Source: Candidatus Taenariivivens baikalensis
Lineage (GTDB): Bacteria > Omnitrophota > Omnitrophia > Omnitrophales > Aquincolibacteriaceae
Length of the DNA stretch: 64,000 bases
Direction of reading: 5' to 3'
Assembly: GCA_009691445.1 (NCBI GenBank)
Contig: SICL01000005.1
Coordinates: 2,446 to 66,445 of the forward strand
The notes beneath the pieces are model-generated. The model saw only the letters and a program-made list of their open reading frames with translations. It was not told where the DNA came from and searched no databases. Each line of letters opens with the position of its first letter. Position 1 is the first letter of the stretch. The translations under genes and the position numbers were made by a program. Positions 823 through 39,768 of this stretch are shown here, one piece after another.

Positions 823-1029
823 TTAACGTGCTTTTACAACGTTAGCTGCTTGATCGCCTTTAGGTCCTTGAACGGTATCGAAGTTGACAATGTCACCTTC
901 GTTTAAGGATTTATATCCTTCGCCCGTAATTGCGGAATGATGAACAAACACATCCTTACCGCCGTTATCGGGAGCGATGAATCCAAATCCCTTTTCGTTA
1001 TTGAACCACTTAACTGTACCTTGTCCCAT
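823..1029 (-). CDS. Cold-shock protein, CspA family.
   Basis: [34 protein letters not shown]...[14 protein letters not shown] carries the RNP1/RNP2 cold-shock domain signature. The ORF-track start at 1080 adds 17 unlikely residues, so the internal Met is preferred. Confidence 0.85.
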
Positions 1030-1066
1030 AATCAGTTTATCCTTTCTCGTGAATCGACAGCCATAC

Positions 1067-1097
1067 AAAAAAAACCGCAAGCGCTTTATGCTTGCGG
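1067..1097 (-). terminator. Hairpin followed by a T-run (minus-strand sense).
   Basis: CCGCAAGC / GCTTGCGG stem with an adjacent A-run on the plus strand at 1067-1074. It lies downstream of the CarD-like gene. Confidence 0.45.
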
Positions 1098-1300: not shown

Positions 1301-1846
1301 CTAGGATTCGTGGGCGCTTTCTAAGGCTGAAAGAACGAGGGAATTGACCTTTAAAGTGCGTTCAAGACTCTTTCTTATCTTCTCTGCAGCTTCCTGAGCG
1401 GTAATCTCAAATACAAAGGCAAGCTCCCTAACCAGTCCTTTCGCGGAACGGTGCAAGGTCTGACGCTTTTTCTGCTCTTTAGCCTGCATCTCATCACGAG
1501 AACAGGAGAGGAGGGACTGAGCTAAGGCCCAAGTCTGATTTTTTTCAGCAAAGACATTGAGGGTGGTGGGTTCGGCTTTTAAAGGCGTTGCGGTGACCTG
1601 CGACCGGGTGAGGTATTCAAGGATGGCATTGGCCTCCTTCAGGGAGACGGGAGTGTGAAAACCCGAGGCATAAACATCATCAGCGCCAATGACGAAACGA
1701 AGCTTCATCTGGCTGAAGAGTTTCGGTACAAGAGCGTAACGAAGCTTCTCTTTACCGGCTTCTTTTTCTTTGATAATTTCCTTGATGCAACAGAGGCCGT
1801 GAACGGAATGATAAAGCAAATCGCCGACTGATAGGGTTTTTGTCAT
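1301..1846 (-). CDS. CarD/CdnL/TRCF-family RNAP-interacting transcription regulator.
   Basis: N-terminal KTLSVGDLLYHSVHGLCCIKEI resembles the CdnL N-terminal Tudor-like domain (xKxGDxVVYPxHGVGxI). Length is 181 aa. Confidence 0.55.
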   Translation of the reverse strand: MTKTLSVGDLLYHSVHGLCCIKEIIKEKEAGKEKLRYALVPKLFSQMKLRFVIGADDVYASGFHTPVSLKEANAILEYLTRSQVTATPLKAEPTTLNVFAEKNQTWALAQSLLSCSRDEMQAKEQKKRQTLHRSAKGLVRELAFVFEITAQEAAEKIRKSLERTLKVNSLVLSALESAHES

Positions 1847-6342: not shown

Positions 6343-8253
6343 ATGGCACTTATCAGTTTGCAGGATATTTCACTTGCGATGGGCGGACCGCTTCTTTTTG
6401 ATCAGATGAATCTCCAGCTGGAGCAGGGAGAGCGCGTAGCCCTGCTGGGCCGTAATGGCGTTGGCAAGACTACATTAATGAGAGTGATGTCCGGCCAGCT
6501 CAAAGTTGATTCTGGCGAAGTGGTGTATCAACGGGGAATCCGCGTCACGCATCTGGCGCAGGAAGTTCCGGCGGACATCACCGGCACGGTCTTTGATGTG
6601 GTGCTCTCGGGTCTTGGAGACCGCGTCAAACTTTTGAGCGATTATCATCACGTCAATCACCGCCTTCAAACCGAATACTCCGATCAGCTCATGCGGCAAC
6701 TGGGAGCTTTACATGAGGAAATGGATCATCACAATGCGTGGGAGACCAACAGTCAGGTTGAGGATGTGATTGCTCACATGAAGCTTGATCCGGAAAGCAA
6801 TTTCGAAGAATTGTCCGGAGGTCAAAAGAAACGTGCGCTTTTAGCCAAGGCACTGGTTCTGAAACCTGAAATCCTGCTTCTGGATGAACCGACCAATCAT
6901 CTGGATATTGATTCCATTGACTGGCTGGAAGGTTTTTTAAAGGAATATCCGGGCACGATTTTTTTTGTGACGCATGACCGCACGTTCATGACGCATCTGG
7001 CTACGAGAATCACGGAACTCGACCGCGGCAAACTTTTCAGCTGGACCTGCGATTATCCGACCTTTCTGGAACGCAAGCAGGCGGCTTTAGATGCCGAGGC
7101 TGTGGCGCGCGCGCTCTTTGATAAAAAACTGGCGCAGGAAGAAGTCTGGATCCGCCAGGGCATCAAGGCACGGCGTACGCGCAATCAGGGTCGCGTGGTG
7201 GCGCTTGAAAAACTGAGAATTCAAAAGAAAGAACAGCGCCAGTTGATGGGTAAAGTGAAGATGCAAGTCCAGGAGGCTGACCGTTCAGGCCAGCTTGTGA
7301 GCAAGGCCGAGCATCTCAGTCACGCGTACGGAGAGAAACGGCTGATCCGGAATTTCACCGGTGAGATTATGCGCGGGGACAAGATCGGCGTCATTGGGCC
7401 CAATGGAAGCGGAAAAACCACATTGCTCCGGATTCTTCTGGGAGAAATCCAGCCGCAAAAAGGAACCGTGCGTCTTGGCACCAATCTCCAGATTGCGTAT
7501 TACGATCAGCTGCGCGAACAACTGGATGAAAACAAATCCGTGATTGAAAATATCTGTGACGGTGGAGACACGGTCCTGGTTCAGGGAAAGCCGCGCAATG
7601 TCATCGGTTATCTCCAGGATTTTCTTTTTGCTCCGGAACGCGCCCGTACTCCGGTCAAGGTTTTGTCCGGCGGAGAACGTAACCGCCTTTTTCTCGCGCG
7701 GCTTTTTGCCAAGCCTTCGAATTTACTCGTAATGGATGAACCGACCAATGATCTGGATGTCGAAACACTGGAACTTCTGGAAGAACTGCTTATTGATTAT
7801 TCAGGGACACTGCTTTTGGTCAGTCATGATCGTTCGTTTCTCAATAATGTGGTGACGTCCACGATTGTTCTGGAGGGGGACGGCGCGGTCTATGAATATG
7901 CCGGCGGATATGATGATTGGCTCATGCAGCGTCGGGGAAAAAGTGAGATGATGAAGCTCCCGGAGACAACAGTGATCAAAAAAAAGCCGGAACCTCCCAA
8001 ACCTTCTTCCGCGGCAAAAACGGAAAAGTTTTCGCCTCAGGACCAGCGCGAACTAACAAAAATCCCCGGTGAGATTGAAAAACTTGAGGCAGAGCAGGTC
8101 AAACTTTACAGCGTGATGTCCGATCCCTCCTTTTATCAAAAAAACTCCACTGAAATGTCCCAAACTCAGTCCCAAGCCGATGCCCTCGCTCAAAAACTCA
8201 TGACTTTCTATCAGCGCTGGGAACACCTTGAAGCCCTGAAAAAACAGGGATGA
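6343..8253 (+). CDS. ABC-F family ATPase (two tandem ABC domains plus a C-terminal coiled-coil, Uup-like).
   Basis: Two Walker A sites (GRNGVGKTT, GPNGSGKTT), two LSGGQ/LSGGE signatures, two Walker B sites (LLLDEPTNHLD, LVMDEPTNDLD), a K/E-rich linker and a C-terminal coiled-coil. No membrane domain. Confidence 0.85.
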   Translation: MALISLQDISLAMGGPLLFDQMNLQLEQGERVALLGRNGVGKTTLMRVMSGQLKVDSGEVVYQRGIRVTHLAQEVPADITGTVFDVVLSGLGDRVKLLSDYHHVNHRLQTEYSDQLMRQLGALHEEMDHHNAWETNSQVEDVIAHMKLDPESNFEELSGGQKKRALLAKALVLKPEILLLDEPTNHLDIDSIDWLEGFLKEYPGTIFFVTHDRTFMTHLATRITELDRGKLFSWTCDYPTFLERKQAALDAEAVARALFDKKLAQEEVWIRQGIKARRTRNQGRVVALEKLRIQKKEQRQLMGKVKMQVQEADRSGQLVSKAEHLSHAYGEKRLIRNFTGEIMRGDKIGVIGPNGSGKTTLLRILLGEIQPQKGTVRLGTNLQIAYYDQLREQLDENKSVIENICDGGDTVLVQGKPRNVIGYLQDFLFAPERARTPVKVLSGGERNRLFLARLFAKPSNLLVMDEPTNDLDVETLELLEELLIDYSGTLLLVSHDRSFLNNVVTSTIVLEGDGAVYEYAGGYDDWLMQRRGKSEMMKLPETTVIKKKPEPPKPSSAAKTEKFSPQDQRELTKIPGEIEKLEAEQVKLYSVMSDPSFYQKNSTEMSQTQSQADALAQKLMTFYQRWEHLEALKKQG

Positions 8254-11023: not shown

Positions 11024-11278
11024 ATGTCGGACATCACTAAACCTATGATTAAGAAAAAAGAATTCGGTGTGCAGCCGCTTGATGAATGGATGACGCGCTT
11101 TGCGCTTTCCAATCATGACTTGGTGGGGGCTTCTACAGAACAGCTCACTCATAAAATGGTGAGTAAAGGGAGAAAAGGAAGGCGCCTGACATTGAATGCC
11201 CGCCACAAAATCTTAGCGGCGCTTAAAGTGTTAAAGCCAGATCAGCCCGTTACTCTCAAAGAATTATTTAACTATTAA
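11024..11278 (+). CDS. Hypothetical small protein.
   Basis: 84-aa ORF with a plausible start and no recognisable motif. Confidence 0.3.
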   Translation: MSDITKPMIKKKEFGVQPLDEWMTRFALSNHDLVGASTEQLTHKMVSKGRKGRRLTLNARHKILAALKVLKPDQPVTLKELFNY

Positions 11279-13813: not shown

Positions 13814-14386
13814 ATGATTTTGGCTTTTAACAAACCGTACGGAGTGCTCTCCCAGTTTAATCCTCAAGTGGCGGGACAGCGGACGCTGGACGAATTTAAA
13901 TTTCCAAAAAATGTTTATCCCATCGGCCGGCTGGATATGGACAGTGAAGGGCTTTTGCTTTTGAGTGATGAAGGCCAGTGGAGCGATCTGCTTCTTCATC
14001 CGCGTCATGGCCATGAGAGAACTTATCATGTCCAGGTGGAGGGGGAAATCGAAGAAGCCGCGCTTATCGAACTCAGAAAAGGCGTGGCCATTCAGGACTG
14101 GAAAACAAGACCGTGTCAGGTCAGCCGCCTTTCCAGCGTGAATTATTCGGAGCGAAATCCGCCGATCCGGTTTCGTAAGTCTATTCCGACAAGCTGGATG
14201 GAACTGAAATTAATCGAAGGCAAGAACCGTCAGGTGAGACGCATGACGGCGGCTGTGGGATTCCCGACTCTGCGCTTGATTCGTGTGGCCTCCGGTAGTT
14301 TGAAGCTGGGAGACCTTGAGCCGGGAACATGGTGTGCTTTAAGTACAGAGCAAATCCGCATGTTGCTTCAAAAACCCAGAAAGTAA
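13814..14386 (+). CDS. rluE: 23S rRNA pseudouridine synthase RluE (RsuA family).
   Basis: ILAFNKPYGVLSQF, catalytic GRLDMDSEGLLLL, C-terminal NPPIRFRKSIPTSWMELKLIEGKNRQVRRMTAAVGFPTLRLIRV matches E. coli RluE closely. Confidence 0.8.
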   Translation: MILAFNKPYGVLSQFNPQVAGQRTLDEFKFPKNVYPIGRLDMDSEGLLLLSDEGQWSDLLLHPRHGHERTYHVQVEGEIEEAALIELRKGVAIQDWKTRPCQVSRLSSVNYSERNPPIRFRKSIPTSWMELKLIEGKNRQVRRMTAAVGFPTLRLIRVASGSLKLGDLEPGTWCALSTEQIRMLLQKPRK

Positions 14387-14400
14387 ACGACCAATTATTT

Positions 14401-15429
14401 ATGAGAAATTTTGACAGCCGCGATAATCACCGTCACTCCAATCATCGTCCTGATCCTCGGCGTTCGGGCTACTCGAACCGTCCCAATTCTCAAAGACCTC
14501 CGTACGGCAGAGGATCTTCACGCCCTCCTCACGGATCCTCTCATCACGCGGGTTCACGGAATATCGATGAAACGGAATCCCGTTTTTATGAAGGGACTGT
14601 GATTGATCCTTCCCCGCGTATTCGCCTTGAGGATGGTTCCAGTGAACTTACGATGCGCGCCATGGATCTGATTTGTCCGATCGGGATGGGACAGAGAGGA
14701 CTGATTGTGGCGCCTCCGGGTTCGGGCAAGACCACATTCCTCAAACATATTTGTCAGGCCGTGGCTAAGAGTCACCCGGAAATGAAACTCTACTGTTTGC
14801 TCATTGATGAAAGACCGGAGGAAGTAACCGATTTCAAGCGCAGTGTGACCGCGGAAGTGCGCGCGTCCTCGTCCGATCAAACTTATGAGCATCATATTCA
14901 GACCGCCAATGATTTGATGCGCCAGGCCTTTCGCGAAGTTTCAGCCGGAGCCAATGTGATGGTGGTAATTGATTCCCTGACGCGTCTTTCCCGGGTTCAT
15001 AATGCGGACCGCTCCAGCGGAAGAACGATGTCTGGCGGCGTCGATGCACGTGCGCTTGAAGTGCCGCGCCGTATTTTCGGGTCAGCACGTAAGATTGAAA
15101 ACGGCGGATCACTTTCAATCCTTGCCACTATTCTCGTTGAGACGGGCAGCCGGATGGATGATGTGATCTTTGAAGAATTTAAAGGAACGGGTAATATGGA
15201 AATTTATTTGTCTCGAGAAATTTCAAGCCGCCGCATTTTTCCGGCCATTGATATTTCAAAAAGCGGGACGCGTAAAGAAGCCCTTCTTTTTGAACCTAAA
15301 GAATACCAACAGGTAAGTGTCTTGCGGCGTGCTCTTGCGGAGTGCGGCAAGGTGGAGGCGGTTACGGCTTTGATTGCCCAGCTTGAAAAGCATCCCACCA
15401 ATCAGGAGCTCCTCGCGGGTTTTGATTAG
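14401..15429 (+). CDS. rho: Transcription termination factor Rho homologue. It lacks the canonical N-terminal RNA-binding domain and has an R/S/P/H-rich 60-aa N-terminus instead.
   Basis: The C-terminal 280 aa align with Rho: [26 protein letters not shown] (P-loop), [82 protein letters not shown]. The start is fixed at 14401 because rluE occupies the upstream sequence. Confidence 0.8.
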
Positions 15430-15481: not shown

Positions 15482-15555
15482 GTCATTGCGAGTCATTCGC
15501 TTGTCATTCTGAGCGAAGCGAAGAATCTCAGGATAAACTCCGCGAAGCAATCTCT
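15482..15555. repeat. Family-1 repeat, degenerate copy.
   Basis: GTCATTGCGAGTCATTCGCTTGTCATTCTGAGCGAAGCGAAGAATCTCAGGATAAACTCCGCGAAGCAATCTC. The CTCAGGATAAACTCCGCGA module recurs at 46950. Confidence 0.7.
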
Positions 15556-26981: not shown

Positions 26982-29900
26982 ATGAGAAACCGAAGGGTAG
27001 AATTACTGACGCATTTTGGGAGCATTGGTTCAAGCCTAAAACAGGGTGCTTTTTCATGTCCGGATAATAAACGCATTAAAAAAGAATTTAAAACCAGTAC
27101 CCGCTTATCTTTTCCAAAGTTTTCTCTCCATCGGTTGACCTATGATATCTCCAAGCCCCGTCCCTCACTAAAATTCCTGTCCTTCGTCCTGCTTTTGACA
27201 TTCTCCATTCAGGCCTTCGGCTGGGCGGAGACCGGACAAGTCTTCCCGGGATCGATTCGAATGCATCCGGTGGAAAATATTTTTCCGGAAGTGACGCAAG
27301 CGCCGAGCTCTTTTTTTATCCCGCCGTCCTTCGGAGAAATAAAAAAATCATTCACAGGATCCCGGGAAGAAAAAATTATCCTGATCCAGGACGCTCATGT
27401 TCATGAAGAGGCGCAGAGGAATATCGCACAAATGCTAAATTTTCTTTCCCGGGAGAAGAGGCTTCACCAGATTTATGTTGAAGGGGCTGAAGGTGTGATC
27501 GATATGACGCCTTATTCCTTTTTCCCTGATCTGAAGATCCGCCAGGAAACGGCGGATTATTTCCTCACAAAAGGAAGGCTCACTGGGGCGGAATACGCCG
27601 CCATCGTTACCACACCGGTATTATCCCTTTATGGTATTGAAAACCGCCAGGTCTATGAAAATCACCGGAAGGTTTATTTGGAAGGAATTGAAATCCAGAA
27701 AAAAAATCAGGCAATTCTGGAACCGCTTGGGAAGGCCCTTAAAGAAATGGCCCGTTTTGCCATGTCGCCGGAAGTCATGGAGTTTTACCGCAAGACAGGG
27801 TTTTTAGAACCCCAAGAAAAGGACTGGAATCTTTACTTTGACGAATTGCTTCGACAAGCTGGATTTCTGGGAATTGCTATTGATTCGGATTCGCAGATGA
27901 AAACCATGGAACGCCTTTCGGCACTTGGAAAAGAGATTGATTTGAAAAATCCGGATGCGGATCTTAAAAAGTTTCCTGAAACTGAAAAAACCCGGCAAGG
28001 CAGGCTTCAATACCAGGAATATCTCCGGCTTTCCAAGAAAATTTCCGGGGATTTTTTTACGGAAGCCTACGGACTTGAAAAAAAAATTAAGAGGATGCTT
28101 TTAAAGACTCCGGAGGAAAAACGGCTGAATGATTTTTTGGAAGTGGTGGAAATTTACAGAAAATTTTTTGATTTTTCCCTAACGACTCAGGAAGTGGAAT
28201 GGTTTTATTCCCGTCGTTTGAAATGGGACATGAAAGCCCTGCGTGATTTCTTGACGCCTCTGCTGAAGCGTTATCACTTCACCTACGAACTTCCTTTGTC
28301 TCTGGAGTCCATGGATCAGGATCTGTTGCGGATAGAAAAATTCTACCTTTTAGCTTTGGACCGTGATCGTATTCTGATTCAAAATGCTATTGGACACATG
28401 AAGACGACGGGCCTTAAACAAAGTGCGGTTATCACCGGTGGTTTTCATACGCCCGGGATTGAAAAATTTCTCCGGGAACAGGGCTATTCTTATGTTGTGG
28501 TGAGTCCCCGCATGACTTCCATCCCAGATGTTAAAAAGCAAGAAGCTCTCTACCGGCAAGCCGTTCTAGGACGTCCTTTGCTTGTAGAGAAAATTCTTGT
28601 TTCCCTGGATCTGTCGCGCCAAGCGCCGATGAAGGATTTGCAGTATCAAATGACGCCATGGCTGATGACACCCAATCCAAAATTTTCTTATCCATTTATC
28701 TGGCTTGAGACGGTAAGAGGTATTTTTAAATCAGGAAATCCAGACGTATTGTTTCATCGCCTTAAGATTGCGGCGGACAAGCTTCCTCCTGGTTCCAGAA
28801 AAGAGGCAGATGCGGTTTATCATGAGTTAGAAGGGGGCGTTCTTCAATCTTCAGAATCCGGAATGCAATATTATTGGAGAAAGATGTCGCAAGGAATTTT
28901 TTTGCGGCTTACAGCGGGCAGTAACAAAAAAATACCGAACCGCTCAAGAGGGGGGAAAAGCGGCAAAGAAATTTTCCCCCTGATTGATTTTGGTCATGAC
29001 TGGTTGGAAGGCGATCAAGTTGATTCCGATCTGGTCTCTAATGAAGTTGTGAGGATTCTATCCTCCGATTTGCCGTCACGAATCCCGTTGTTGATGGGAC
29101 GAAGCAGTGATTCATTCCAAAAACGTTCCGAAGTGCGAAGTCCATCCGTGACTTCAGCTCTCAAGCGCGGTACGAGGACGACCGCCGATTTAAATCTCCA
29201 GTTAGACGATTTGTGGAAGCCCATGGATGCTGAATTAGAAAAAGCGACTGGTGTTTCCTTAGACCGGCGTGCTTCGGGGGAGACTTTGTCGGGAGCTGCG
29301 GTCGGTGAAGATTATCTGGATAAAGCCTATGTCGTTGCTTTTTTGTGGGGACTAGGCTGGACGACACTTTCGCTGTTCCACATTTTTCCAGTCACCTTTA
29401 TTTCAGGGGTCCTGTTTTTTTGGGCCTTTACACTTGGAAACTTTCTTTTTAAGATTTTTGCCCATGAATGGGTGCATGCTTTTTTTGCCCGAGTATTTGG
29501 CGCTAAAGAAGCCTTAACGATTAAAAATTTAACCGGAAATCTCGGATGGGATTTTCTAGGGGGAATGGTCCTGTTTCCCTTGCTTCGGTATCCCCGGGTT
29601 AATGTGCCGTCGATTCAAGGGACTCTGCGCGAAACCTTTGCACTGAAAGTGGCCTTTCCGGTCCATCTGATGGCAGTTGCAGCGCTCTACTTACACCGCG
29701 GAGAAGTTTTGGATTGGCTTACTCCCTTAGTCAGCGGCATTACTTCGGATCCTTTCCTTCTTTCCTGGCTCCTTTTTAGTTTTATCGGAGGCGGGATCTT
29801 ATCGGTCGCCGAAGGGTTTTACTCTGATTATTTAAACAAAAAACGAGAATCGGGCGAGCTTGCCTGCGGAGTCTCCTCGGTGATCACGATTCTTCGTCCG

Positions 29901-32900
29901 GACGGAGAGGCCCTGCGCATTCATTTTGATTACGGCTATGACAAAACAGATTTCGAAATCTTTATGGAAGGGGCGGAGAATCAATCGCGTCATCAAAAAG
30001 GAATTCACGACGGACGTTTGGGAGACACCATTGAGTTTCGCCGTAAGCGATTAAGAAAAATCCTGAGTGAAGTTGCTCCTGACATTGAAGTGCCCGAGCG
30101 GCTTTTTGACAATTACTTCCGGATTGTGGACAAAGTTCGCGACCGGGGAGACCAGGCGAGCGGGGAAGTCTCCATGGTCACGGCCGGAGGAGGAAGGGTT
30201 ATTTTTGAAGTCACCGGACACGGACGCTTTTTAAGCGCGGGAACCATGAGTCAAGAAAACGCTCAGCTTCATCAATGGTCTCCCACTGAAGAAATTAATT
30301 ATGTGGGCGTGAACCAGGGCAAGTATGAAGTGCTAAGGCGCAACCGGGCCCTTTATGTTCCGCATAACGGCGACGGCAATGTGTTTAAGGTTTCGGGCCG
30401 GTGGCTGGGAACAGGGCTCGTAAGAACGCTTCTCTTTAATGTTTTTCATATGAAGCATCCCGCGAGCTCGGATACTCCGATAGTTGCGGGATTTATGGAA
30501 TATTTTTTGACCCAGGGGAGTCTGAAGTTTTCCGCGCGGTTTGCGTTTGCAGAAACCATGACAGAGCTGCCCGCGTCTTCCCCGGAATCAATTAAGGGAT
30601 GGTTCAAGGACAAATGGGCGAGATTTAAAGAGCGCCGGGGTTGGTACAATTTTAGCCGTTCGATTTATCCTTCTCCCGAACAGTTGAGCGTGTGGGAAAG
30701 AGAAGCGTTTTTGCCGGCTTTCCGGAGATTTGCCTCTTCCGGCGGACAAGCCCCTTCCGGTTTTTATCTGTCGTCCATGTCTCCCGCAGATCGTCGAACC
30801 TTAGCGGATTTATTTGAGCGTGAGATCCTGAAAAAAGCGGACTTGTTTGTTCAGCCGGTTTTTTTCGATCCAGCTAAGCGAAAGTTGTTTTTAGAAACCA
30901 TGGTCAATGCTTTTTGCGACCAGGATTTTGAGCAGGCAAGTTTGATGGCGAAAAAAAGAATGAAAGGGACTTTTGGGGTGCGGCCTGTTTATTCCCTTGA
31001 GCCGGGGACGATGATCGCGATTTCGGACAGCCAGGGAATGTTTTTTGGCATTAATCCGGGTGAGACCTCACAGCAGGGTCCTGAAGTTTACGCAGCTTCC
31101 GAACCAGCGGCGTTTAAGGAACGTTTCGAGGTCAACGGACGTTTGCAGCAGCTCCCTTACCGGATTGGCCTTAATTCGACACGAGGCGATGTGGTGATCA
31201 TGAAGTTTGAAAATAATCCTCTTCGCAAACCGACGGAACCTGCCCTGGGAGTTTATGGATACGCGACCAATGAAAAGAGTGACCAGCATCCCCTGGGCCG
31301 GCCCTTAACGGACCGGGAGCTTTATGAAATGACGGCTTTGATTCCCGGCAATCCGATGCTGAGTGTTCCGGAGCCCAAAAAAGACGGCAAGGCCACAGTC
31401 GCCCATGATCTTGAGAAAATTTCGGGGGTTGTGGCCAGGATTGACGCGGATTGGCAGCAAAACGATGCGCTACCGGTTTTGGAGCAGAGTTTCAACCGTC
31501 AAAGCGGTTTTGAGTTTCTGCGTCTGCTCATGGTGCTTGAAGCGTTTAAAAGGCTCCAGGCAGCAACGGGACGTCTGCTTTCCGATCCTAAAGACCGCGC
31601 TCGGATTCAGAAAAAGTTTTTCGCCTTGATCACTCTTTTTTATTTTGGCAATACTTCGGGGCAGAGGATCACTCAGAGTGCATTTCAAACCCGGTATCTT
31701 AAAATTTTCAATTTTGAGCTTCAACAGATTTTGGGACCTTCCGCCGCACCCGCGTACAACCGGTTCGAGGATTTAAAAGGCCTGGATGATCTACTCCCAG
31801 GCACTAAAGAAGTGGACATCTTGATTCCGGCCGTCCATATCAGTCTTGTAAGCGCCGTTAAAATCAAGGCGCGTCTTGAAAAGTGTTTTCCGATTCTCAA
31901 TATCCAGCTTCCGGATGCTAATCATCTTTTGGAATCTTTGAAACAGAAAGTGATTTATCAAGGCGACCGGAAGGTCGTGGTGAAAGACAAGAATGAAGTG
32001 GAGTACATCATTACCGCGGATACGATCAGCATTCACGATTCCATTTCCGGAATGACCTTTCCAACTTATAAAACTTCAGAACCAATGGAAGTCCTTTTGA
32101 ATGCGTTAAATCAGAATCAGGGGACACCCTTTTTGGGCCAGAGAGTTTGGGGATTCGCCGGAGAGCATGACACCTTGATGGCGGAAAGTGCCTTAGGGCA
32201 GGGTTTTTATAAAAACGCTCCGTTTAAACGTCATACCTTCAGCACGTTGAGCGGACCGGGAGAAGCGGAACCTGCGACCGTGACTTCCATCTCTCAGGAT
32301 CATACGCTGACCCGCCTCAGCGAATTTTTGGTCACTCAAATGCAGCGGGCTTACGGCACGGAGGTCCGGCCTTTTGGGACGCTGGTGGATCAAGATATTT
32401 TACAAACAACCAATGAATTTATCCGTGAATCTCAGGAAAAGCATCTTCCGGAAATAACAAATAAAAACGGGTCGGTGGCCCGGCAGTTTTATCAAGTCGG
32501 AAAAGGACTGCTCTGGTATCTGCTGGAAAATCCGATCGGGACGCTTGCGGCTATTTTAATTTTTGCTGTGGCGATGAGCTTTGGAATCTCCATTGCGCCC
32601 TCGGCCACCATCATTGATCCGCTGATGCAGGTTTTTCCAGCATTGCGGGAAATCTCGTGGGTGATGAAATTGATCGGCCTTTTCTTTAATGTCACCTTTG
32701 TGCCAGGCTTGGGATATGTGATCGGACGTGTGATTGGAAAAGCGATGGGGAGATATCCGACTTCTCTGCGTTTCGGAGGAACGAAAATTTTTATCGCTTC
32801 CGATTTTCATGAAAGCTCTTCATTTCGCATTGAGCAGTTTGTCATGAAGCTTTGGTCCAAGGCCTGGGGATTTATGGATGTTAATACCTTTTTTGGAGAT

Positions 32901-35021
32901 AACACGAGCAGTTCTGCGCATAATCATACGGCCCGTGGTCCGCATAAAAATGCCTTTATTTTGATGATGGGTCCTGAAAGCGGGCTTGTGACCTACGACG
33001 GCCACGACGGAGCAAAAAATATGTCGAAAGGCCAAGCGGGAGGGAATCAGAGCAAGTCGCGGGGAGTCGGCCCCGTCTTTTTGTGGGTGGCAAGGCAGAA
33101 TGCCGAAGGAAGTCTGACGCCCGGCCTTCAAGATCCATATGCCTCGACTTATTTGCGCAAAGGTCAAACTCGCCAGCCCAAAGCGGTTTATCAGCTCGTC
33201 CTGCCGGCGTTCAGCCGTCCTGTGAACCTGCCGGAAACGACGATTCAAAAATTTACTGCTCAAATCACGGAACGGCTCGGCCTTGACGCGCCGCGGCAGG
33301 CACTATTGACGCAAAGACTTCGTGACTGGAGGACGCTTTACTTGAGTCAATATCAATACAATGTGCCGCAGATGATTCTGGATATCGCCACTGAACTTAA
33401 AATTACGCATGAAACTAAGCTTGTTTTTTTTCAGAAAACCCTGCGGACTTTTCACGGGAAGATAGAAATCCTGGAAGAGTTTTTTGAAAATAGCGTGAGC
33501 GCGATTGAGCGGGAAGTGGCGGCTTATGCGTTGATGCATCAAATAACCGAATGGGCAAGCTTGGGCGGACGACTTTGGAATTTCAATGAAACCCATTCTC
33601 GCCTCAAACGGGCCTCCACGGCCGGTCCAGTGGACGGAGAAGCGGTCACTCAGTTGATTGCCAATATCCGACGAGAATTTGAAATTTTAACGGATAATGC
33701 CCACCTTCATGTTCCGCTTACGCAAGTGGAAAAGGCGGAACTACCCTTTCATATTATTGATCCGGTTCGATTAAAAGCTCCGGTTCCGGAAGAAGTCAGT
33801 TCGATGGTCACCGTGCAAAATTCGAGAAAAAAAGCTAATCAATTACTTAGACAGCTCCATGATCAAGTCCCAACTCGTTATGACGTTTTGGTCAGCGCCG
33901 TCAAAAAATTCATTTTAACGGAAGAGGGGAACATTGAGAGAGTATTTAACCGGCTGGGAGATTCTCTGATCAATGGGGATACGATGGTGGTTGATTCACG
34001 CCTAAAAAATGATATCGCCCGTTTTCAGACAATGACTCGATTATCCAGTTATTCCCAAAACAAGCTTGTTCAAGAGTTGATGGCGGTAGTCCCGGGATAT
34101 CTCGATGCACTTTTCGTTCATTTTTCAACGCATCACCATGATGCGTTGCGTGTCTCTTTCGATCTGAAACCAGTTTTAAATCGTCCGGCTCCGGCTGATT
34201 CCGGAGAGCAACCTGCCCAAAGTTATATGGCACCGCCACCCAAAAAAATCCGCAAGACTCCCTCCTCGGGAGCTCGCCGGAAAAAGGCGGAAAGGGTTTC
34301 TGGGACAGCGAAATCCCGAACAATTCTAAAACCAGTGATTGCGGGCGGGAAAACTCACACGGAAGTAGCGAAGGGGAACGCGGATAGCCGCTCTGAACTT
34401 CGTCTGACAAGCGAGTTATCTCAAGCGGTTGACGTTCGATCGCAAATAGAGTTTGAAACCGCTCCGGTTATCCGTGAGATGCGCCTGCGCGCAAGCAAGA
34501 TCGAGCGGATGCTTCAGACCTGGGGACAAAATCCAAAAGTACTGGCGAAGCTTGGAATTTCGCGGACGGTGCCTGGCGTTGGGTATTACTTCCTGGACTT
34601 CAGCCAGCAATCAGGAATCGGGACGATTGAGAACTTGCTTCGTTTCCGCAATCCGGAAGTCAAAGCCGTGGTTTTTGCCGGTGCTGCCGAACGTTCTGAA
34701 TTAAGAAAAACATTTTCTCGTCAAGTTCAGGCCGAAGCGCTTCTTCTTCCGGAAGCCAGTATCGAAACATTTCTCGGAGAAAAAATGTCCGAGCTAGGAT
34801 TCGGCTCGGATCAAGTGATCCAGGTTCAGGGACTGCACGCGGACCGTCTTGATGAAGAGCAGATCAGGGCCTTGCGTGGAAGTCTTACGCTTGCGCTGGG
34901 GCGGATTGTGATTGACTCTGAACGTTCCGTCCACGGTGCGGGAAGAGAAGTTTCCTTCAAGAATATTCTGGATGCCGTGAATCAGGCGGCTTATCAGGCG
35001 GTCGTTCGTCAATCCGCGTAA
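26982..35021 (+). CDS. Giant 2,679-aa polytopic membrane protein of unknown function (TraB/GumN-like motif pair, HExxH-containing TM cluster, G/R-rich low-complexity segment).
   Basis: An uninterrupted 8,040-nt ORF in a roughly 50% GC background cannot arise by chance. It has an N-terminal hydrophobic segment (LKFLSFVLLLTFSIQAFGWA), a 5-helix TM cluster around 29320-29830 containing FAHEWVHAFFARVFG, and a second TM cluster around 32500-32740. No Walker, kinase or other canonical motif was found. Confidence 0.6.
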   Translation: MRNRRVELLTHFGSIGSSLKQGAFSCPDNKRIKKEFKTSTRLSFPKFSLHRLTYDISKPRPSLKFLSFVLLLTFSIQAFGWAETGQVFPGSIRMHPVENIFPEVTQAPSSFFIPPSFGEIKKSFTGSREEKIILIQDAHVHEEAQRNIAQMLNFLSREKRLHQIYVEGAEGVIDMTPYSFFPDLKIRQETADYFLTKGRLTGAEYAAIVTTPVLSLYGIENRQVYENHRKVYLEGIEIQKKNQAILEPLGKALKEMARFAMSPEVMEFYRKTGFLEPQEKDWNLYFDELLRQAGFLGIAIDSDSQMKTMERLSALGKEIDLKNPDADLKKFPETEKTRQGRLQYQEYLRLSKKISGDFFTEAYGLEKKIKRMLLKTPEEKRLNDFLEVVEIYRKFFDFSLTTQEVEWFYSRRLKWDMKALRDFLTPLLKRYHFTYELPLSLESMDQDLLRIEKFYLLALDRDRILIQNAIGHMKTTGLKQSAVITGGFHTPGIEKFLREQGYSYVVVSPRMTSIPDVKKQEALYRQAVLGRPLLVEKILVSLDLSRQAPMKDLQYQMTPWLMTPNPKFSYPFIWLETVRGIFKSGNPDVLFHRLKIAADKLPPGSRKEADAVYHELEGGVLQSSESGMQYYWRKMSQGIFLRLTAGSNKKIPNRSRGGKSGKEIFPLIDFGHDWLEGDQVDSDLVSNEVVRILSSDLPSRIPLLMGRSSDSFQKRSEVRSPSVTSALKRGTRTTADLNLQLDDLWKPMDAELEKATGVSLDRRASGETLSGAAVGEDYLDKAYVVAFLWGLGWTTLSLFHIFPVTFISGVLFFWAFTLGNFLFKIFAHEWVHAFFARVFGAKEALTIKNLTGNLGWDFLGGMVLFPLLRYPRVNVPSIQGTLRETFALKVAFPVHLMAVAALYLHRGEVLDWLTPLVSGITSDPFLLSWLLFSFIGGGILSVAEGFYSDYLNKKRESGELACGVSSVITILRPDGEALRIHFDYGYDKTDFEIFMEGAENQSRHQKGIHDGRLGDTIEFRRKRLRKILSEVAPDIEVPERLFDNYFRIVDKVRDRGDQASGEVSMVTAGGGRVIFEVTGHGRFLSAGTMSQENAQLHQWSPTEEINYVGVNQGKYEVLRRNRALYVPHNGDGNVFKVSGRWLGTGLVRTLLFNVFHMKHPASSDTPIVAGFMEYFLTQGSLKFSARFAFAETMTELPASSPESIKGWFKDKWARFKERRGWYNFSRSIYPSPEQLSVWEREAFLPAFRRFASSGGQAPSGFYLSSMSPADRRTLADLFEREILKKADLFVQPVFFDPAKRKLFLETMVNAFCDQDFEQASLMAKKRMKGTFGVRPVYSLEPGTMIAISDSQGMFFGINPGETSQQGPEVYAASEPAAFKERFEVNGRLQQLPYRIGLNSTRGDVVIMKFENNPLRKPTEPALGVYGYATNEKSDQHPLGRPLTDRELYEMTALIPGNPMLSVPEPKKDGKATVAHDLEKISGVVARIDADWQQNDALPVLEQSFNRQSGFEFLRLLMVLEAFKRLQAATGRLLSDPKDRARIQKKFFALITLFYFGNTSGQRITQSAFQTRYLKIFNFELQQILGPSAAPAYNRFEDLKGLDDLLPGTKEVDILIPAVHISLVSAVKIKARLEKCFPILNIQLPDANHLLESLKQKVIYQGDRKVVVKDKNEVEYIITADTISIHDSISGMTFPTYKTSEPMEVLLNALNQNQGTPFLGQRVWGFAGEHDTLMAESALGQGFYKNAPFKRHTFSTLSGPGEAEPATVTSISQDHTLTRLSEFLVTQMQRAYGTEVRPFGTLVDQDILQTTNEFIRESQEKHLPEITNKNGSVARQFYQVGKGLLWYLLENPIGTLAAILIFAVAMSFGISIAPSATIIDPLMQVFPALREISWVMKLIGLFFNVTFVPGLGYVIGRVIGKAMGRYPTSLRFGGTKIFIASDFHESSSFRIEQFVMKLWSKAWGFMDVNTFFGDNTSSSAHNHTARGPHKNAFILMMGPESGLVTYDGHDGAKNMSKGQAGGNQSKSRGVGPVFLWVARQNAEGSLTPGLQDPYASTYLRKGQTRQPKAVYQLVLPAFSRPVNLPETTIQKFTAQITERLGLDAPRQALLTQRLRDWRTLYLSQYQYNVPQMILDIATELKITHETKLVFFQKTLRTFHGKIEILEEFFENSVSAIEREVAAYALMHQITEWASLGGRLWNFNETHSRLKRASTAGPVDGEAVTQLIANIRREFEILTDNAHLHVPLTQVEKAELPFHIIDPVRLKAPVPEEVSSMVTVQNSRKKANQLLRQLHDQVPTRYDVLVSAVKKFILTEEGNIERVFNRLGDSLINGDTMVVDSRLKNDIARFQTMTRLSSYSQNKLVQELMAVVPGYLDALFVHFSTHHHDALRVSFDLKPVLNRPAPADSGEQPAQSYMAPPPKKIRKTPSSGARRKKAERVSGTAKSRTILKPVIAGGKTHTEVAKGNADSRSELRLTSELSQAVDVRSQIEFETAPVIREMRLRASKIERMLQTWGQNPKVLAKLGISRTVPGVGYYFLDFSQQSGIGTIENLLRFRNPEVKAVVFAGAAERSELRKTFSRQVQAEALLLPEASIETFLGEKMSELGFGSDQVIQVQGLHADRLDEEQIRALRGSLTLALGRIVIDSERSVHGAGREVSFKNILDAVNQAAYQAVVRQSA

Positions 35022-36573: not shown

Positions 36574-36659
36574 GGGTAAAGCCTATTTACTTCGTCCATT
36601 GACAGGCATGTCCAAAACGTATACACTTCTTTACAACTGTATACACTTTGGACATACCC

Positions 36660-37262
36660 ATGAAAACCAAGAAAGAAGAATTGATAGCGGAATTTAAGCG
36701 TCACAAGGGAATCCTGCGCTTCTCAGCCATGCTCAAGTCCGGATTCCACCGCCTTGAGATCAAATCGCTTATTGAGTCGGGAGAAGTCGAAAAAATTGGC
36801 CGGGGAATTTACCGCCTTAAAAACGGTCCAAGCCTTTCTAACCCTGACCTTGTTACCGTCGCACTCCAAGCCCCGAAAGGGGTGATATGCCTTATTTCCG
36901 CCCTCAGTTACCACCATGCCACGGATGAAGTGCCGCACAGCATTTATGTGGCGATACCGCGAGGAGTTCGCGCAACCAAGATTGATTACCCGCCAGTGCA
37001 ATACTTTCGCTATGACCCAACGGTTTGGAAGAATGGGATTGAAACGCATACCATAGACGGACATCCAGTTAAAATCTACAGCCTTGCAAAGACCGTTGCC
37101 GACTGTTTCAAATATCGCAACAAGATCGGCCTCGACGTGGCCCTCCAAGCCCTGAAACTTGCTGTAACCGAAAAGAAAACTAAACCAACCGAAATCATGC
37201 GCTTCGCCATAATATGCCGCGTGGATAAAGTCATCAGACCTTATGTGGAGTCTCTCCTTTGA
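36660..37262 (+). CDS. Type IV toxin-antitoxin AbiEi-family antitoxin / transcriptional regulator.
   Basis: N-terminal winged-helix GILRFSAMLKSG...IEKIGRGIYRL plus a C-terminal domain typical of AbiEi. ATG at 36660. The track start at 36648 is TTG. Direct repeat GTATACACT x2 at 36620-36649, immediately upstream. Confidence 0.7.
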   Translation: MKTKKEELIAEFKRHKGILRFSAMLKSGFHRLEIKSLIESGEVEKIGRGIYRLKNGPSLSNPDLVTVALQAPKGVICLISALSYHHATDEVPHSIYVAIPRGVRATKIDYPPVQYFRYDPTVWKNGIETHTIDGHPVKIYSLAKTVADCFKYRNKIGLDVALQALKLAVTEKKTKPTEIMRFAIICRVDKVIRPYVESLL

Positions 37263-38179
37263 AGCCCGACATTAAAAATATCGAAGCGTCCGTCAAGGGA
37301 CGCCTCCAGAACAAGGCTAAAGAAACAAACCGTCCTTACTCGGAAGTCCTCCAGTATTACGGAATGGAACGGTTTCTTTACCGTTTCTCGCAGTCCGATT
37401 ATGCCGGGCAATTCATTCTCAAAGGTGCGTTGATGTTCACCGTGTGGGACGTTCCCGCGCGAAGGACAACGGTGGATATTGATTTTCTAGGCCGTATTGA
37501 TAACAAAGTTGAAAGTATCGAAGGCGTCATTCGCGATGTCTGCAAGATAAAAGTACCGGCTGACGGACTTGTTTTTGACGCTAAGACTGTGAAGAGTAAA
37601 CGAATCAAGGAAGATGCTGATTATGAGGGCGTGCGCGTCAATTTTTTCGGCTTTCTCGAAAAATCAAAAATCCCAATCCAGATCGATGTCGGCTTCGGCG
37701 ATGTGATAACTCCCAAGGCTTCAACGATTGACTACCCAACGATTCTGAATTTTCCGGCACCGCGCCTTGAGGGTTACACTTTTGAAAGTGTTGTGGCCGA
37801 GAAATTTGAAGCCATGATCAAGTTGGGCCTCCTTAATAGCCGCATGAAAGACTTTTATGACATTTGGCTGATGACCCGGCAAATGAACTTTGAGGGAAAA
37901 AAGCTGGCCGCCGCAATCAAGGCAACCTTCAAGAATCGGGAAACACCGCTTCCTGCGAACGTTCCGCTTTTCGCCGAAGAAATTTACGACGAGAAATCAA
38001 ACAACGAAGCCATGTGGAAAGCCTTTCTGCGCAAGAAGCAAATCAAAACCGCACCCGATAGCCTTGCTGAGGTTGCCCGAGGCATCGAGGTTTTTCTTTC
38101 GGAACCCGTGAAGGCTATCACAACCGGCAAGGAATCATCAAAGACGTGGCACGCGCCGGGGCCGTGGGTTAGAACCTGA
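37259..38179 (+). CDS. AbiEii/AbiGii-family nucleotidyltransferase toxin (DUF1814).
   Basis: 306 aa. Overlaps the AbiEi stop by 4 nt. GFGD...IDVGFGDVITP NTase-like motifs and a DUF1814-type C-terminus. Confidence 0.75.
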   Translation: MKPDIKNIEASVKGRLQNKAKETNRPYSEVLQYYGMERFLYRFSQSDYAGQFILKGALMFTVWDVPARRTTVDIDFLGRIDNKVESIEGVIRDVCKIKVPADGLVFDAKTVKSKRIKEDADYEGVRVNFFGFLEKSKIPIQIDVGFGDVITPKASTIDYPTILNFPAPRLEGYTFESVVAEKFEAMIKLGLLNSRMKDFYDIWLMTRQMNFEGKKLAAAIKATFKNRETPLPANVPLFAEEIYDEKSNNEAMWKAFLRKKQIKTAPDSLAEVARGIEVFLSEPVKAITTGKESSKTWHAPGPWVRT

Positions 38180-39118: not shown

Positions 39119-39454
39119 GTGGGCGAAGAAATTTATCAGCTGGTTTATTATGAAGATCCCGGTGGAAAGAAGCCCTACCGCGAATGGTTTGAAGCTTTAA
39201 GAGATGTCAAAGCTCAGGCGGTCATTGATGCGCGTTTGGGACGTCTGCGTTTAGGGAATTTCGGAAAATGCGAGCCGGTTGGCCACGGAGTTTACGAATT
39301 GAAGATTTATTACGGCCCCGGCTACCGGGTTTATTTTTCGAGAGCCGGAAATCAGATTCTTCTTCTTTTATGCGGAGGAGACAAATCACGCCAATCCGAA
39401 GATATTCATAAGGCTCAAACGCACTGGCTGCAGTATAAAGGACCGAGATCATGA
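39119..39454 (+). CDS. RelE/ParE-superfamily toxin (HigB-like addiction-module killer protein).
   Basis: 111 aa. The start is GTG. It matches the killer-protein family (YYEDPGGKKPYREWF...RLGNFGKCEPVGHGVYELKIYYGPGYRVYF). Overlaps the downstream antidote by 4 nt. Confidence 0.75.
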   Translation: MGEEIYQLVYYEDPGGKKPYREWFEALRDVKAQAVIDARLGRLRLGNFGKCEPVGHGVYELKIYYGPGYRVYFSRAGNQILLLLCGGDKSRQSEDIHKAQTHWLQYKGPRS

Positions 39455-39768
39455 AAGAAAAAAAGAATGGAAACTACAAACAAGATTTGATGAAGCGCCT
39501 GCAAAACGCAGAATTTGCTGAAACCTATTTAAACGCGGCTTTTGAAGACGAAGATAAACATGTCTTTTTACTTGCGCTCCGGGATGTGACGGAGGCTCGG
39601 GGCGGAATGGGAAGGATTGCGCGGCTTACCGACATTAGCCGCGAGCATATTTACCGGATGCTTTCAGAAAAAGGAAATCCGGAGCTGGAAACTCTCAAGA
39701 AATTGCTGAGTGCCTTGAATCTCAAGATTTCGATTTCCACAAAAGACCAGGATCGTAAAGCGGCTTAA
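39451..39768 (+). CDS. HigA-like addiction-module antidote protein (HTH).
   Basis: 105 aa. AETYLNAAFEDED...LLALRDVTEARGGMGRIARLTDISREHIYRMLSEKGNPELETLKKLLSALNL is the antidote-protein family signature. Confidence 0.75.
   Translation: MKEKKNGNYKQDLMKRLQNAEFAETYLNAAFEDEDKHVFLLALRDVTEARGGMGRIARLTDISREHIYRMLSEKGNPELETLKKLLSALNLKISISTKDQDRKAA

What the first reader, a model, noticed from the sequence alone, without database searches (positions are those of the whole stretch)
14401..15429. Rho homologue missing the entire N-terminal RNA-binding (OB/CSD) domain.
Residues about 60-342 align convincingly with the Rho ATPase core (P-loop, Q-loop and R-loop regions). The N-terminus, however, is only about 60 aa of R/S/P/H/G-rich low complexity ([43 protein letters not shown]). 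rluE occupies the upstream DNA up to 14386, so there is no room for the canonical primary RNA-binding domain. Either primary-site RNA binding is provided in trans or by the R-rich tail, or this is a Rho paralogue with altered function.
Basis: partly seen in the sequence, partly recalled or inferred. Interest (0 to 1): 0.55.

Follow-up and report, generated by a model that had tools for sequence, protein, structure and literature searches.

The report
Rho motor without its RNA-reading domain
This is an intact gene for a Rho termination-factor motor that lacks the whole N-terminal RNA-recognition domain and carries a short disordered basic tail instead; it belongs to a widespread, conserved but undescribed family in Omnitrophota bacteria, which raises the question of how a Rho ring loads onto RNA without its primary binding site.

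Summary
Window 14401..15429 (+) encodes a 342-aa protein. Residues 58-342 are a complete Rho C-terminal motor domain, and every catalytic and RNA-contacting motif I mapped is present. Residues 1-57 are a disordered, Arg/Ser/Pro/His-rich tail. No Rho N-terminal helix bundle or OB-fold is encoded in any frame of the window.

It is not an assembly error. The same protein is NCBI MSR77119.1 (Candidatus Omnitrophota MAG). At least 120 relatives (68-82% identical, 285-380 aa) have the same build. All 46 metagenomic short-form loci whose upstream DNA was held have an in-frame stop just upstream.

Tails vary from 4 to 95 residues. They are basic in most members and missing in about a fifth. More distant motor-only Rho proteins with basic tails occur in MAGs labelled Sericytochromatia and Hydrogenedentes, and in an unidentified circular 4.9-Mb metagenomic genome.

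Canonical full-length Rho exists in other Omnitrophota MAGs. I could not determine whether both forms share a genome, so 'sole Rho' versus 'paralogue' stays open.

Most likely it is an active ring translocase that loads on RNA without rut reading, helped by the tail and/or NusG. This is a new variant of a known kind, of moderate interest.

The parts
14401..15429 (+). Complete gene for the short Rho (342 aa plus stop); identical to NCBI MSR77119.1
14401..14571 (+). N-terminal tail, residues 1-57. It has an MRNF start motif, then an Arg/Ser/Pro/His/Asn/Gly-rich segment of net charge +6 that is predicted disordered. It ends in the conserved D-E-x-E junction.
   Evidence: AF2 pLDDT below 50 for residues 1-3, 9-16 and 20-49; composition; family-wide tail statistics
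14572..15426 (+). Rho C-terminal motor domain (RecA-type ATPase core plus C-terminal helices), residues 58-342
   Evidence: PRK09376 model positions 131-411; PDB Rho chains; pLDDT above 90; Foldseek rmsd 1.4 A over 283 columns
14710..14736 (+). P-loop / Walker [10 protein letters not shown] (K110 and T111 correspond to E. coli K184 and T185)
   Evidence: alignment; invariant in 120 sequences
14809..14814 (+). Catalytic Glu and Arg valve (E137-R138, corresponding to E. coli E211-R212)
14962..14985 (+). Walker B segment VVIDSLTR (D191 corresponds to E. coli D265)
15001..15045 (+). Q-loop of the secondary RNA-binding site, [15 protein letters not shown] (R208 corresponds to E. coli K283, S211 to T286)
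   Evidence: lower pLDDT here, as expected for a loop
15139..15159 (+). R-loop of the secondary RNA-binding site, ETGSRMD (R251 corresponds to E. coli K326)
15271..15273 (+). Arginine finger R291 (corresponds to E. coli R366); invariant in the family
13814..14386 (+). Upstream neighbour: a complete RsuA/RluE-type pseudouridine synthase that fills the DNA where an NTD would have to be encoded
   Evidence: PF00849 6e-21; TIGR00093 162 bits above its cutoff, best named match RluE

Best explanation
The gene encodes a real, selected, minimal Rho. It has the C-terminal motor domain only, preceded by a short disordered basic tail.

Shown:
- The motor domain is complete. All residues needed for ATP binding and hydrolysis and for gripping RNA in the ring channel are conserved across the family: Walker A and B, catalytic Glu, Arg valve, Arg finger, Q-loop and R-loop.
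- The OB-fold and helix-bundle that form Rho's primary (rut-reading) site are absent from the protein and from the surrounding DNA.

Inferred:
- The protein assembles through its CTD into a hexameric ring and works as an RNA-dependent ATPase and 5'->3' translocase. The CTD is the part of Rho that holds the hexamer together.
- It cannot recognise pyrimidine-rich rut sites through YC pockets, so loading must be largely independent of sequence.
- RNA capture is helped electrostatically by six flexible Arg-rich tails around the ring entrance. This is analogous to the basic disordered insertions that raise RNA affinity in actinobacterial and Bacteroides Rho.
- Alternatively or additionally, ring closure is driven by NusG-KOW binding to the CTD, as E. 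coli NusG does on C-poor RNA.

The expected outcome is termination or surveillance of untranslated transcripts without a rut code. Whether it is the only Rho of its genome or a second copy is not settled.
For: Identity as a Rho CTD.

Catalytic and SBS residues, mapped to E. coli numbering through the alignment, are invariant or at least 90% conserved in 120 family members. The mapped residues are K110, T111, E137, R138, D191, R208, S211, R251, R278 and R291.

The family is conserved and abundant:
- 120 best hits at 68-82% identity, all 285-380 aa and carrying only PF00006.
- 46 metagenomic short-form loci, every one with an in-frame stop no more than about 130 codons upstream of the conserved Phe. 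None has a canonical NTD within 10 kb, while two canonical control loci do show it.

Basic N-termini recur:
- Tails are 19% Arg, with a median of 40 residues and typically +4 to +8 net charge.
- A marine subclade has a conserved Lys-rich MTRKxLSLKVKR start.
- Motor-only Rho proteins at 43-55% identity carry independent RGG- or R-rich tails.

Literature:
- The CTD carries hexamer cohesion, ATPase and SBS functions; NTD insertions aid RNA binding (PMC12360218).
- NusG-KOW binds the Rho CTD and promotes ring closure even on C-less RNA (PMC7819879).
Against: - No biochemical data exist for any member.
- About 23 of 120 members have tails under 18 residues with roughly zero net charge. Some are certainly genuine (P0104, P0041, L117, L099), so the tail is not obligatory.
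- Removing only the first 27 residues of E. coli Rho abolishes RNA binding (cited in PMC11347177). A PBS-less Rho would therefore have to load quite differently.
- Canonical Rho occurs in other Omnitrophota MAGs, so this protein may not be the housekeeping terminator.
- NusG-interface residues were not checked, because the primary paper was not available.
Confidence: 0.55

Rival explanations
1. Dependent paralogue. The genome also has a canonical full-length rho. The short protein works only as a second subunit type, forming mixed hexamers in which full-length subunits supply the primary RNA-binding sites. It would then tune or dampen Rho activity rather than act alone.
For: - Canonical Rho with a complete NTD is present in MAGs labelled Omnitrophota: L026 and eight partial NTD-bearing proteins.
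- Two rho genes are common in the PVC group, and hetero-hexamers have been proposed for N-terminally shortened second copies (PMC11347177).
- The short gene is not in the rho/RF-1-gene context seen for the canonical gene in L026.
- In one Omnitrophota contig the ABC-F/small-HTH locus lacks the short rho, so the gene is polymorphic in position or presence.
- In a neighbour-joining tree the nearest neighbours that retain an N-terminal domain are Rho proteins with degenerate OB domains, which I read as 'Group B'-like.
Against: - Conservation is very high (68-82% identity across groundwater, sludge, lake and marine samples), and all catalytic residues are invariant. This is more typical of a core gene.
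- No locus shows both genes within 10 kb.
- The accession blocks of 10 short and 8 canonical Omnitrophota proteins never coincide, but that sample is too small to be informative.
- The tree is unbootstrapped, and all inter-group identities are about 50%.
Confidence: 0.25
2. Primary-site function supplied in trans. A separately encoded RNA-binding protein (a cold-shock/OB protein, a stand-alone Rho NTD or another adaptor) docks on the motor ring and delivers RNA.
For: - A CspA-type cold-shock protein is encoded in the window at 823..1080.
- NTD-only Rho fragments exist on long contigs elsewhere.
- The conserved MRNF and MTRKxLSLKVKR starts could be docking motifs.
Against: - No RNA-binding gene is a conserved neighbour in about 60 loci.
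- The only recurrent small neighbour is an XRE-like HTH protein that follows ABC-F genes even where no Rho is present.
- The Omnitrophota NTD-only hits are annotated as partial genes, which I read as truncation at contig ends.
- CspA genes are ubiquitous, and this one lies 13 kb away on the other strand.
Confidence: 0.08
3. Repurposed motor. The protein is no longer a transcription terminator. It would be an RNA remodelling or translation-linked ATPase, for example acting with the ABC-F factor it is often co-transcribed with.
For: The short rho directly follows an ABC-F gene, sometimes overlapping it by 4 nt. This is seen in L082/L083, L089, L106, L108, L113, L116 and L120. The gene lacks the domain that defines terminator targeting.
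Against: - The synteny is absent in many loci, including this window, where the only ABC-F gene (a different, Uup-like one) lies 6 kb upstream.
- Every Rho-specific RNA-translocation motif is retained.
- No additional domain suggests a new activity.
Confidence: 0.1
4. Artefact or pseudogene: a truncated or frameshifted canonical rho produced by assembly error or decay.
For: None beyond the unusual length.
Against: - The identical protein was assembled independently in NCBI, ENA and Logan data.
- The upstream gene is complete and ends 14 nt before the start.
- No NTD remnant is present in any frame.
- The architecture is conserved in more than 160 sequences or loci, all with intact catalytic residues.
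Confidence: 0.01

Closest known systems
Canonical bacterial Rho (E. coli type; 'Type 1' of Moreira et al. 2024)
   Same: The C-terminal RecA-type motor is 47-49% identical and superposes at 1.4-1.6 A. Walker A/B, catalytic Glu, Arg valve, Arg finger, Q-loop and R-loop are all present.
   Different: The whole N-terminal domain is missing: the helix bundle PF07498 and the OB/CSD fold PF07497, which together form the primary rut-binding site. It is replaced by 57 disordered residues. The protein scores below the TIGR00767 cutoff (363 against 509).
'Group B' / 'Type 4' short Rho (D'Heygere 2013; Moreira 2024) and NCBIfam NF041509 'paralog_Rho2, short form'
   Same: These are N-terminally shortened Rho proteins, often second copies in PVC and actinobacterial genomes, with conserved catalytic residues.
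   Different: They lack only the helix bundle and keep an RNA-binding OB domain; here the OB domain is gone too. The protein matches only positions 76-358 of the 360-position Rho2 model and scores 325 bits against a cutoff of 628. Moreira et al. would class it as 'Rho-like' (single domain), a group they did not analyse in the main text.
Rho with basic, disordered N-terminal insertions (M. tuberculosis, M. luteus, Bacteroides; 'Type 2')
   Same: An Arg-rich, low-complexity, intrinsically disordered segment sits N-terminal to the motor. In those species such segments raise RNA affinity or drive condensation.
   Different: In those proteins the disordered region is added to an intact NTD with a primary binding site. 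Here it is all that is left.
Motor-only Rho-like proteins of other lineages found here (P0339 'Ca. Sericytochromatia', P0370/P0501 'Ca. Hydrogenedentes', P0340 on a circular 4.9-Mb genome, P0346, P0409)
   Same: A Rho CTD aligned only from model position about 130, preceded by R-, RGG- or G/Q-rich tails of 15-110 residues.
   Different: They are only 43-55% identical to the window protein. P0338 and P0339 share its D/S-E-A-E-x-x-F junction and cluster with it. The others may be independent losses of the NTD.

Membership tests
Rho transcription termination factor | RecA-type ATPase core with Walker A (GK[TS]) and Walker B Asp | tested here: met
   APPGSGKTT and VVIDSLTR; K110, T111 and D191 invariant in 120 relatives
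Rho transcription termination factor | Catalytic Glu211, Arg valve R212 and Arg finger R366 (E. coli numbering) | tested here: met
   E137, R138 and R291 are aligned and invariant
Rho transcription termination factor | Secondary RNA-binding site: Q-loop and R-loop | tested here: met
   Both loops are present at the aligned positions, with conservative K283->R208, T286->S211 and K326->R251 changes, each at least 90% conserved
Rho transcription termination factor | Curated whole-protein model cutoffs | tested here: inconclusive
   Passes NCBIfam PRK09376 (381 against 315) but fails TIGR00767 (363 against 509), because the N-terminal third of the model is unmatched
Rho transcription termination factor | OB-fold / cold-shock-like RNA-binding domain forming the primary (rut) binding site (PF07497) | tested here: not met
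   No Pfam hit. The alignment to Rho starts at model position 131. No NTD similarity in any frame of the window. The N-terminus is predicted disordered.
Rho transcription termination factor | N-terminal helix bundle (PF07498) | tested here: not met
Rho transcription termination factor | Homo-hexameric ring; RNA-dependent ATPase, helicase and termination activity | not testable with these tools
   Needs protein biochemistry or multimer modelling
NCBIfam NF041509 paralog_Rho2 (Rho, short form) | Score at or above the curated cutoff over the full 360-position model, including its roughly 75-residue N-terminal part | tested here: not met
   325 bits against a cutoff of 628; only model positions 76-358 matched. 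Related motor-only proteins also fail.
Moreira et al. 2024 'Type 4' Rho | [quoted passage not shown] | tested here: not met
   The RNA-binding domain is absent; definition taken from PMC11347177
FliI / type III secretion and F1 ATPases (other PF00006 families) | Family-specific model cutoffs | tested here: not met
   Best scores are 78 bits or less against cutoffs of 380-750

The most novel reading that the evidence does not exclude
The short protein is the only Rho of a large Omnitrophota clade and is a fully functional terminator that has dispensed with the primary RNA-binding site. Transcript capture would be done by a fuzzy, fast-evolving basic tail and/or by NusG, that is, rut-independent and essentially sequence-blind Rho termination. 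The same solution would have arisen several times, in the lineages labelled Sericytochromatia and Hydrogenedentes and in others.
Probability: 0.3. Interest if true: 0.75.

Novelty: new variant of a known kind. Interest (0 to 1): 0.58.

Why it matters
Rho's N-terminal domain is regarded as the part that chooses where termination happens. The most recent large survey defines a 'functional Rho' as one that contains the RNA-binding domain.

A strongly conserved, catalytically intact Rho motor that lacks this domain altogether is a natural minimal Rho. It is abundant in an environmentally widespread phylum of ultra-small bacteria. It makes three questions directly testable:
- Is the primary site dispensable for ring loading and termination?
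- Can a disordered basic peptide or NusG replace it?
- How is target selection achieved without a rut code?

It also matters for genome annotation and for censuses of which bacteria have Rho. Such proteins pass one curated Rho model and fail another.

Tried and rejected
- **Small conserved 77-aa neighbour as a trans RNA-binding partner (window 11045..11278): rejected.**
  - It lies directly downstream of the short rho in L002, L088, L089, L106, L108, L113, L116 and L120.
  - Its 92 homologues also occur in MAGs labelled Lentisphaerae and Elusimicrobiota, next to ABC-F genes without any Rho.
  - Its confident AF2 model (pLDDT 90) is a five-helix lambda-repressor/XRE-like HTH.
- **Membership of NCBIfam paralog_Rho2: rejected**.
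- **Co-occurrence with canonical Rho: inconclusive.**
  - I compared NCBI accession blocks of 10 short and 8 canonical Omnitrophota proteins and the lengths of the carrying contigs. No overlap appeared, but the sample is far too small.
  - The genome-collection scan was saturated by canonical Rho through one shared pattern and returned only 4 short-form species genomes.
- **Synteny with the canonical rho locus.** The canonical gene in L026 has an RF-1-domain gene just downstream. The short gene has a different context. This is weak evidence only.
- **Neighbour-joining tree of CTDs.** It places the family with P0338 and P0339 and near Rho proteins with degenerate OB domains. All inter-group identities are about 50% and no bootstrap was run, so I treat this as a lead only.
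- **Literature.** No paper in the held library links Omnitrophota and Rho. The Lawson 2018 and 2019 papers on the NusG-Rho interface were not available, so interface residues were not checked.
- **Promoter and terminator scan around the gene.** Counts were at or below the shuffled expectation (no promoter-like site; four terminator-like sites against 3.9 expected).

Full report
**The object.** Window 14401..15429 (+) is an ORF of 342 codons. A longer mechanical ORF starts at 14329, but that extension overlaps the last 58 nt of the upstream gene. Homologues start with the same M-R-N-F motif as the ATG at 14401: 69 of 120 relatives have an M-[RKNSQ]-[NDRKPS]-[FY] start. The upstream gene (13814..14386) is a complete pseudouridine synthase of the RsuA/RluB/E/F group, with RluE as its best named match. 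It ends 14 nt before the start codon.

**What the protein is.**
- Pfam sees only the generic PF00006 nucleotide-binding domain.
- NCBIfam places residues 60-339 on positions 131-411 of the 413-position Rho model PRK09376. The score is 381 bits against a cutoff of 315. TIGR00767 gives 363 bits, below its cutoff of 509, because the first 130 model positions are unmatched.
- Against solved structures the best hits are Rho chains (E = 3e-88 to 7e-82), and the alignment to E. coli Rho begins at residue 135.
- An AlphaFold2 model built on 120 relatives is confident for residues 57-342 (pLDDT mostly above 90). It has no confident structure for most of residues 1-49.
- The folded part superposes on E. 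coli, M. tuberculosis and Thermotoga Rho C-terminal domains at 1.4-1.6 A over about 283 columns, with 47-49% identity.

I numbered residues through the alignment. The functional residues, and their conservation in the 120-sequence alignment, are:

| Role | E. coli | This protein | Conservation in family |
|---|---|---|---|
| Walker A | K184, T185 | K110, T111 | invariant |
| Catalytic Glu, Arg valve | E211, R212 | E137, R138 | invariant |
| Walker B | D265 | D191 | invariant |
| Q-loop | K283, T286 | R208, S211 | at least 90% |
| R-loop | K326 | R251 | at least 90% |
| Conserved Arg (role not assigned here) | R353 | R278 | invariant |
| Arg finger | R366 | R291 | invariant |

So the motor, including the secondary RNA-binding site in the ring channel, is intact.

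**What is missing.** There is no Rho_N helix bundle and no OB/CSD RNA-binding domain.
- Residues 1-57 are R11 S10 P7 N6 H6 G5, with net charge +6.
- I took a canonical Rho N-terminal domain from a full-length Rho found in another Omnitrophota MAG (L026). tblastn with it gives only chance hits (E above 4) in the window and in four related genome loci.

**Not an artefact, but a family.**
- The protein is identical to NCBI MSR77119.1 from a 'Candidatus Omnitrophica/Omnitrophota' MAG, and was also assembled in ENA and Logan data.
- The 120 best database hits are 68-82% identical and 285-380 aa long. They carry no Rho N-terminal Pfam domain. Those with a source name are almost all labelled Omnitrophota.
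- A targeted scan of JGI/ENA metagenome contigs returned 48 loci of the short form (L099-L146), two canonical Rho loci (L147, L149) and two others. One short-form locus (L144) is cut by its contig end.
- In all 46 short-form loci whose upstream DNA was held, an in-frame stop lies no more than about 130 codons upstream of the conserved Phe. None has canonical NTD similarity within up to 10 kb. The two canonical loci served as positive controls and show the NTD immediately upstream.

**The tail.**
- Measured to the invariant Phe (F62 here), N-terminal extensions range from 4 to 95 residues, with a median of 40.
- The pooled composition is R 19%, P 12%, S 9.5%, H 7%, N 7%, and the net charge is typically +4 to +8.
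- The sequence is not alignable except for the MRNF start and the junction (R-P-x-P-x-R-R-x-x-D-E-A-E-x-R-F).
- About 23 of 120 proteins have extensions under 18 residues with roughly zero net charge. Some of these may be mis-called starts, but several are certainly real. P0104 (MRNFERHAEEPEKRF) and P0041 keep the MRNF start. L117, L099 and L118 are bounded by upstream stops.
- Tail length changes quickly: proteins 92-94% identical in the core differ by 23-27 tail residues.
- A marine subclade (L121-L146, including Tara contigs) has a different, conserved, Lys-rich N-terminus, MTRKxLSLKVKR followed by about 20 residues.
- A basic N-terminus is thus the rule but not a strict requirement. That argues against the tail being the universal replacement for the primary binding site and favours a modulatory role.

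**Beyond Omnitrophota.** An exhaustive search of 1.84 billion cluster representatives collapses the family to two representatives (P0337, P0338). It also reveals more distant motor-only Rho proteins (43-55% identical):
- P0339, NCBI-labelled 'Ca. Sericytochromatia'.
- The P0340 cluster, on a circular 4.89-Mb metagenomic genome.
- P0346, with an RGG-rich tail.
- P0370/P0501, labelled 'Ca. Hydrogenedentes'.
- P0409, with a G/Q-rich plus RGG tail.
- P0344.

Each of the four of these that were scanned (P0339, P0340, P0346, P0370), like the family's own representative P0338, aligns to the Rho models only from position about 130. None reaches the cutoff of the NCBIfam 'paralog_Rho2, short form' model. 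Other short representatives (P0439, P0448) keep an OB-like N-terminus and correspond to the published Type 4 / Group B forms. The architecture 'Rho motor plus basic low-complexity tail' is therefore recurrent.

**Sole Rho or paralogue?** This is the main open point.
- Canonical Rho exists in MAGs labelled Omnitrophota: L026 is full-length with a textbook NTD, and there are eight partial NTD-bearing proteins.
- I could not fetch whole genomes.
- Indirect tests were uninformative. The accession blocks of 10 short and 8 canonical proteins do not overlap. No contig carries both within 10 kb. The genome-collection scan was saturated by canonical Rho and returned only four short-form species.
- Three observations lean towards paralogy. 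The PVC group often has two rho genes (PMC11347177). The short gene is not in the context of the canonical gene of L026. An unbootstrapped NJ tree puts the family near Rho proteins with degenerate OB domains.
- The strong conservation and abundance of the family lean towards a core function.
- I leave this at roughly even odds.

**Neighbourhood.**
- In many loci the short rho directly follows an ABC-F ATPase gene, with 4-nt overlaps in L082/L083. It is followed, again with a 4-nt overlap in L089, by a conserved 77-85-aa gene.
- In the window these elements are dispersed. A Uup-like ABC-F gene lies at 6343..8253, the small gene at 11045..11278 and rho at 14401.
- I tested the small protein as a candidate trans-acting partner and rejected it. 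Its homologues also sit beside ABC-F genes in Lentisphaerae- and Elusimicrobiota-labelled MAGs that have no Rho nearby. Its confident model is an XRE/lambda-repressor-like helix-turn-helix.
- No RNA-binding gene is a conserved neighbour.

**Mechanism (inferred).**
- NusG-KOW binds the CTD and promotes ring closure even on C-less RNA (PMC7819879).
- Basic disordered insertions raise RNA affinity in other Rho proteins.
- The most economical reading is an autonomous ring translocase that loads without rut recognition, assisted by its basic tails and/or by NusG. It would give sequence-blind termination or surveillance of untranslated RNA.
- The alternatives are listed with their tests in the rival explanations: mixed hexamers with canonical Rho (an idea already raised for shortened second copies by Moreira et al.), an unidentified partner in trans, or a repurposed, translation-linked role suggested by the ABC-F linkage.

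**Comparison with the literature.**
- The 2024 survey of 2730 RefSeq genomes contains no Omnitrophota.
- It defines functional Rho as having both RNA-binding and ATPase domains, and it relegates single-domain 'Rho-like' proteins to its supplement.
- Its shortest functional class (Type 4) still has the OB domain.
- No paper in the held library links Omnitrophota with Rho.
- I therefore rate this as a new variant of a known kind: clearly Rho-derived, but failing the family's defining N-terminal features.

Noticed in passing
window 11045..11278 (+); also L002 8927-9157, L088 6984-7241, L089 6993-7226, L092 4001-4234: A conserved 76-85-aa protein family with no Pfam or NCBIfam match. It has 92 homologues and the motif QPLD..GLSNHDLV.ASTEQLTHK.V.KGRKGRRLT. 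The AF2 model (pLDDT 90) is an XRE/lambda-repressor-like five-helix HTH. It sits beside ABC-F ATPase genes in MAGs labelled Omnitrophota, Lentisphaerae and Elusimicrobiota, often with overlapping stop and start codons.
   Followed up: yes
L082 8184-10891, L089 4196-6996, L106, L108, L113, L116, L120; window 6343..8253: A recurrent gene order ABC-F ATPase, short rho, small HTH, with 4-nt overlaps in some loci. In one Omnitrophota contig (L092) the ABC-F and HTH genes abut directly with no rho between them. The window's own ABC-F gene is a Uup-like protein (823 bits against an NCBIfam cutoff of 900). It lies 6 kb upstream of rho.
   Followed up: partly
L121-L146 (metagenome loci, several marine or Tara): A subclade of the short Rho has a conserved Lys-rich N-terminal peptide, MTRK(T/I)LSLKVKR followed by about 20 residues, instead of the variable Arg/Pro/His tail. 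Its conservation suggests a specific binding motif.
   Followed up: partly
P0339, P0340/P0489/P0490 (L096), P0346, P0370/P0501, P0409, P0344: Motor-only Rho-like proteins with R-, RGG- or G/Q-rich tails occur in other lineages. Source labels include Ca. Sericytochromatia and Ca. Hydrogenedentes, and one sits on a circular 4.89-Mb metagenomic genome. The Sericytochromatia case is notable because the 2024 survey found no functional Rho in any of the 33 Cyanobacteriota genomes it analysed.
   Followed up: partly
P0127, P0196, P0200, P0219, P0221, P0229: Rho N-terminal-domain-only proteins of 146-258 aa are called on very long contigs (0.18-0.96 Mb). They could be contig-end fragments, frameshifted genes or genuine stand-alone NTD genes.
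   Followed up: no
window 26982..35021 (+): A giant ORF of 2679 codons with no Pfam domain at E <= 1e-5.
   Followed up: no
window 15503..15529 (+) and 46967..46993 (-): A 27-nt element, GTCATTCTGAGCGAAGCGAAGAATCTC, occurs twice (0 and 2 mismatches; none expected by chance). One copy lies just downstream of the short rho. It looks like a small dispersed repeat lying largely outside the larger ORFs.
   Followed up: partly
window 823..1080 (-) and 1301..1846 (-): A CspA-type cold-shock protein (PF00313, 3e-29) lies next to a protein with a weak CarD/TRCF RNAP-interaction-domain match (8e-4). Both are transcription or RNA-related, but they are 13 kb from rho on the opposite strand.
   Followed up: no
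window 36648..38179 (+) and 39119..39768 (+): An AbiEi/AbiEii type IV toxin-antitoxin pair, and a second two-gene module in which a protein of the 'probable addiction module antidote' family (PF21716) with an HTH_3 match follows a 111-aa ORF with no Pfam match.
   Followed up: no
window 45522..46802 (-) and 47059..48636 (-): Isocitrate lyase and malate synthase genes (the glyoxylate shunt) lie side by side in this Omnitrophota MAG. The window also encodes an H+-pyrophosphatase (54086..56575) and CstA (40035..41837).
   Followed up: no
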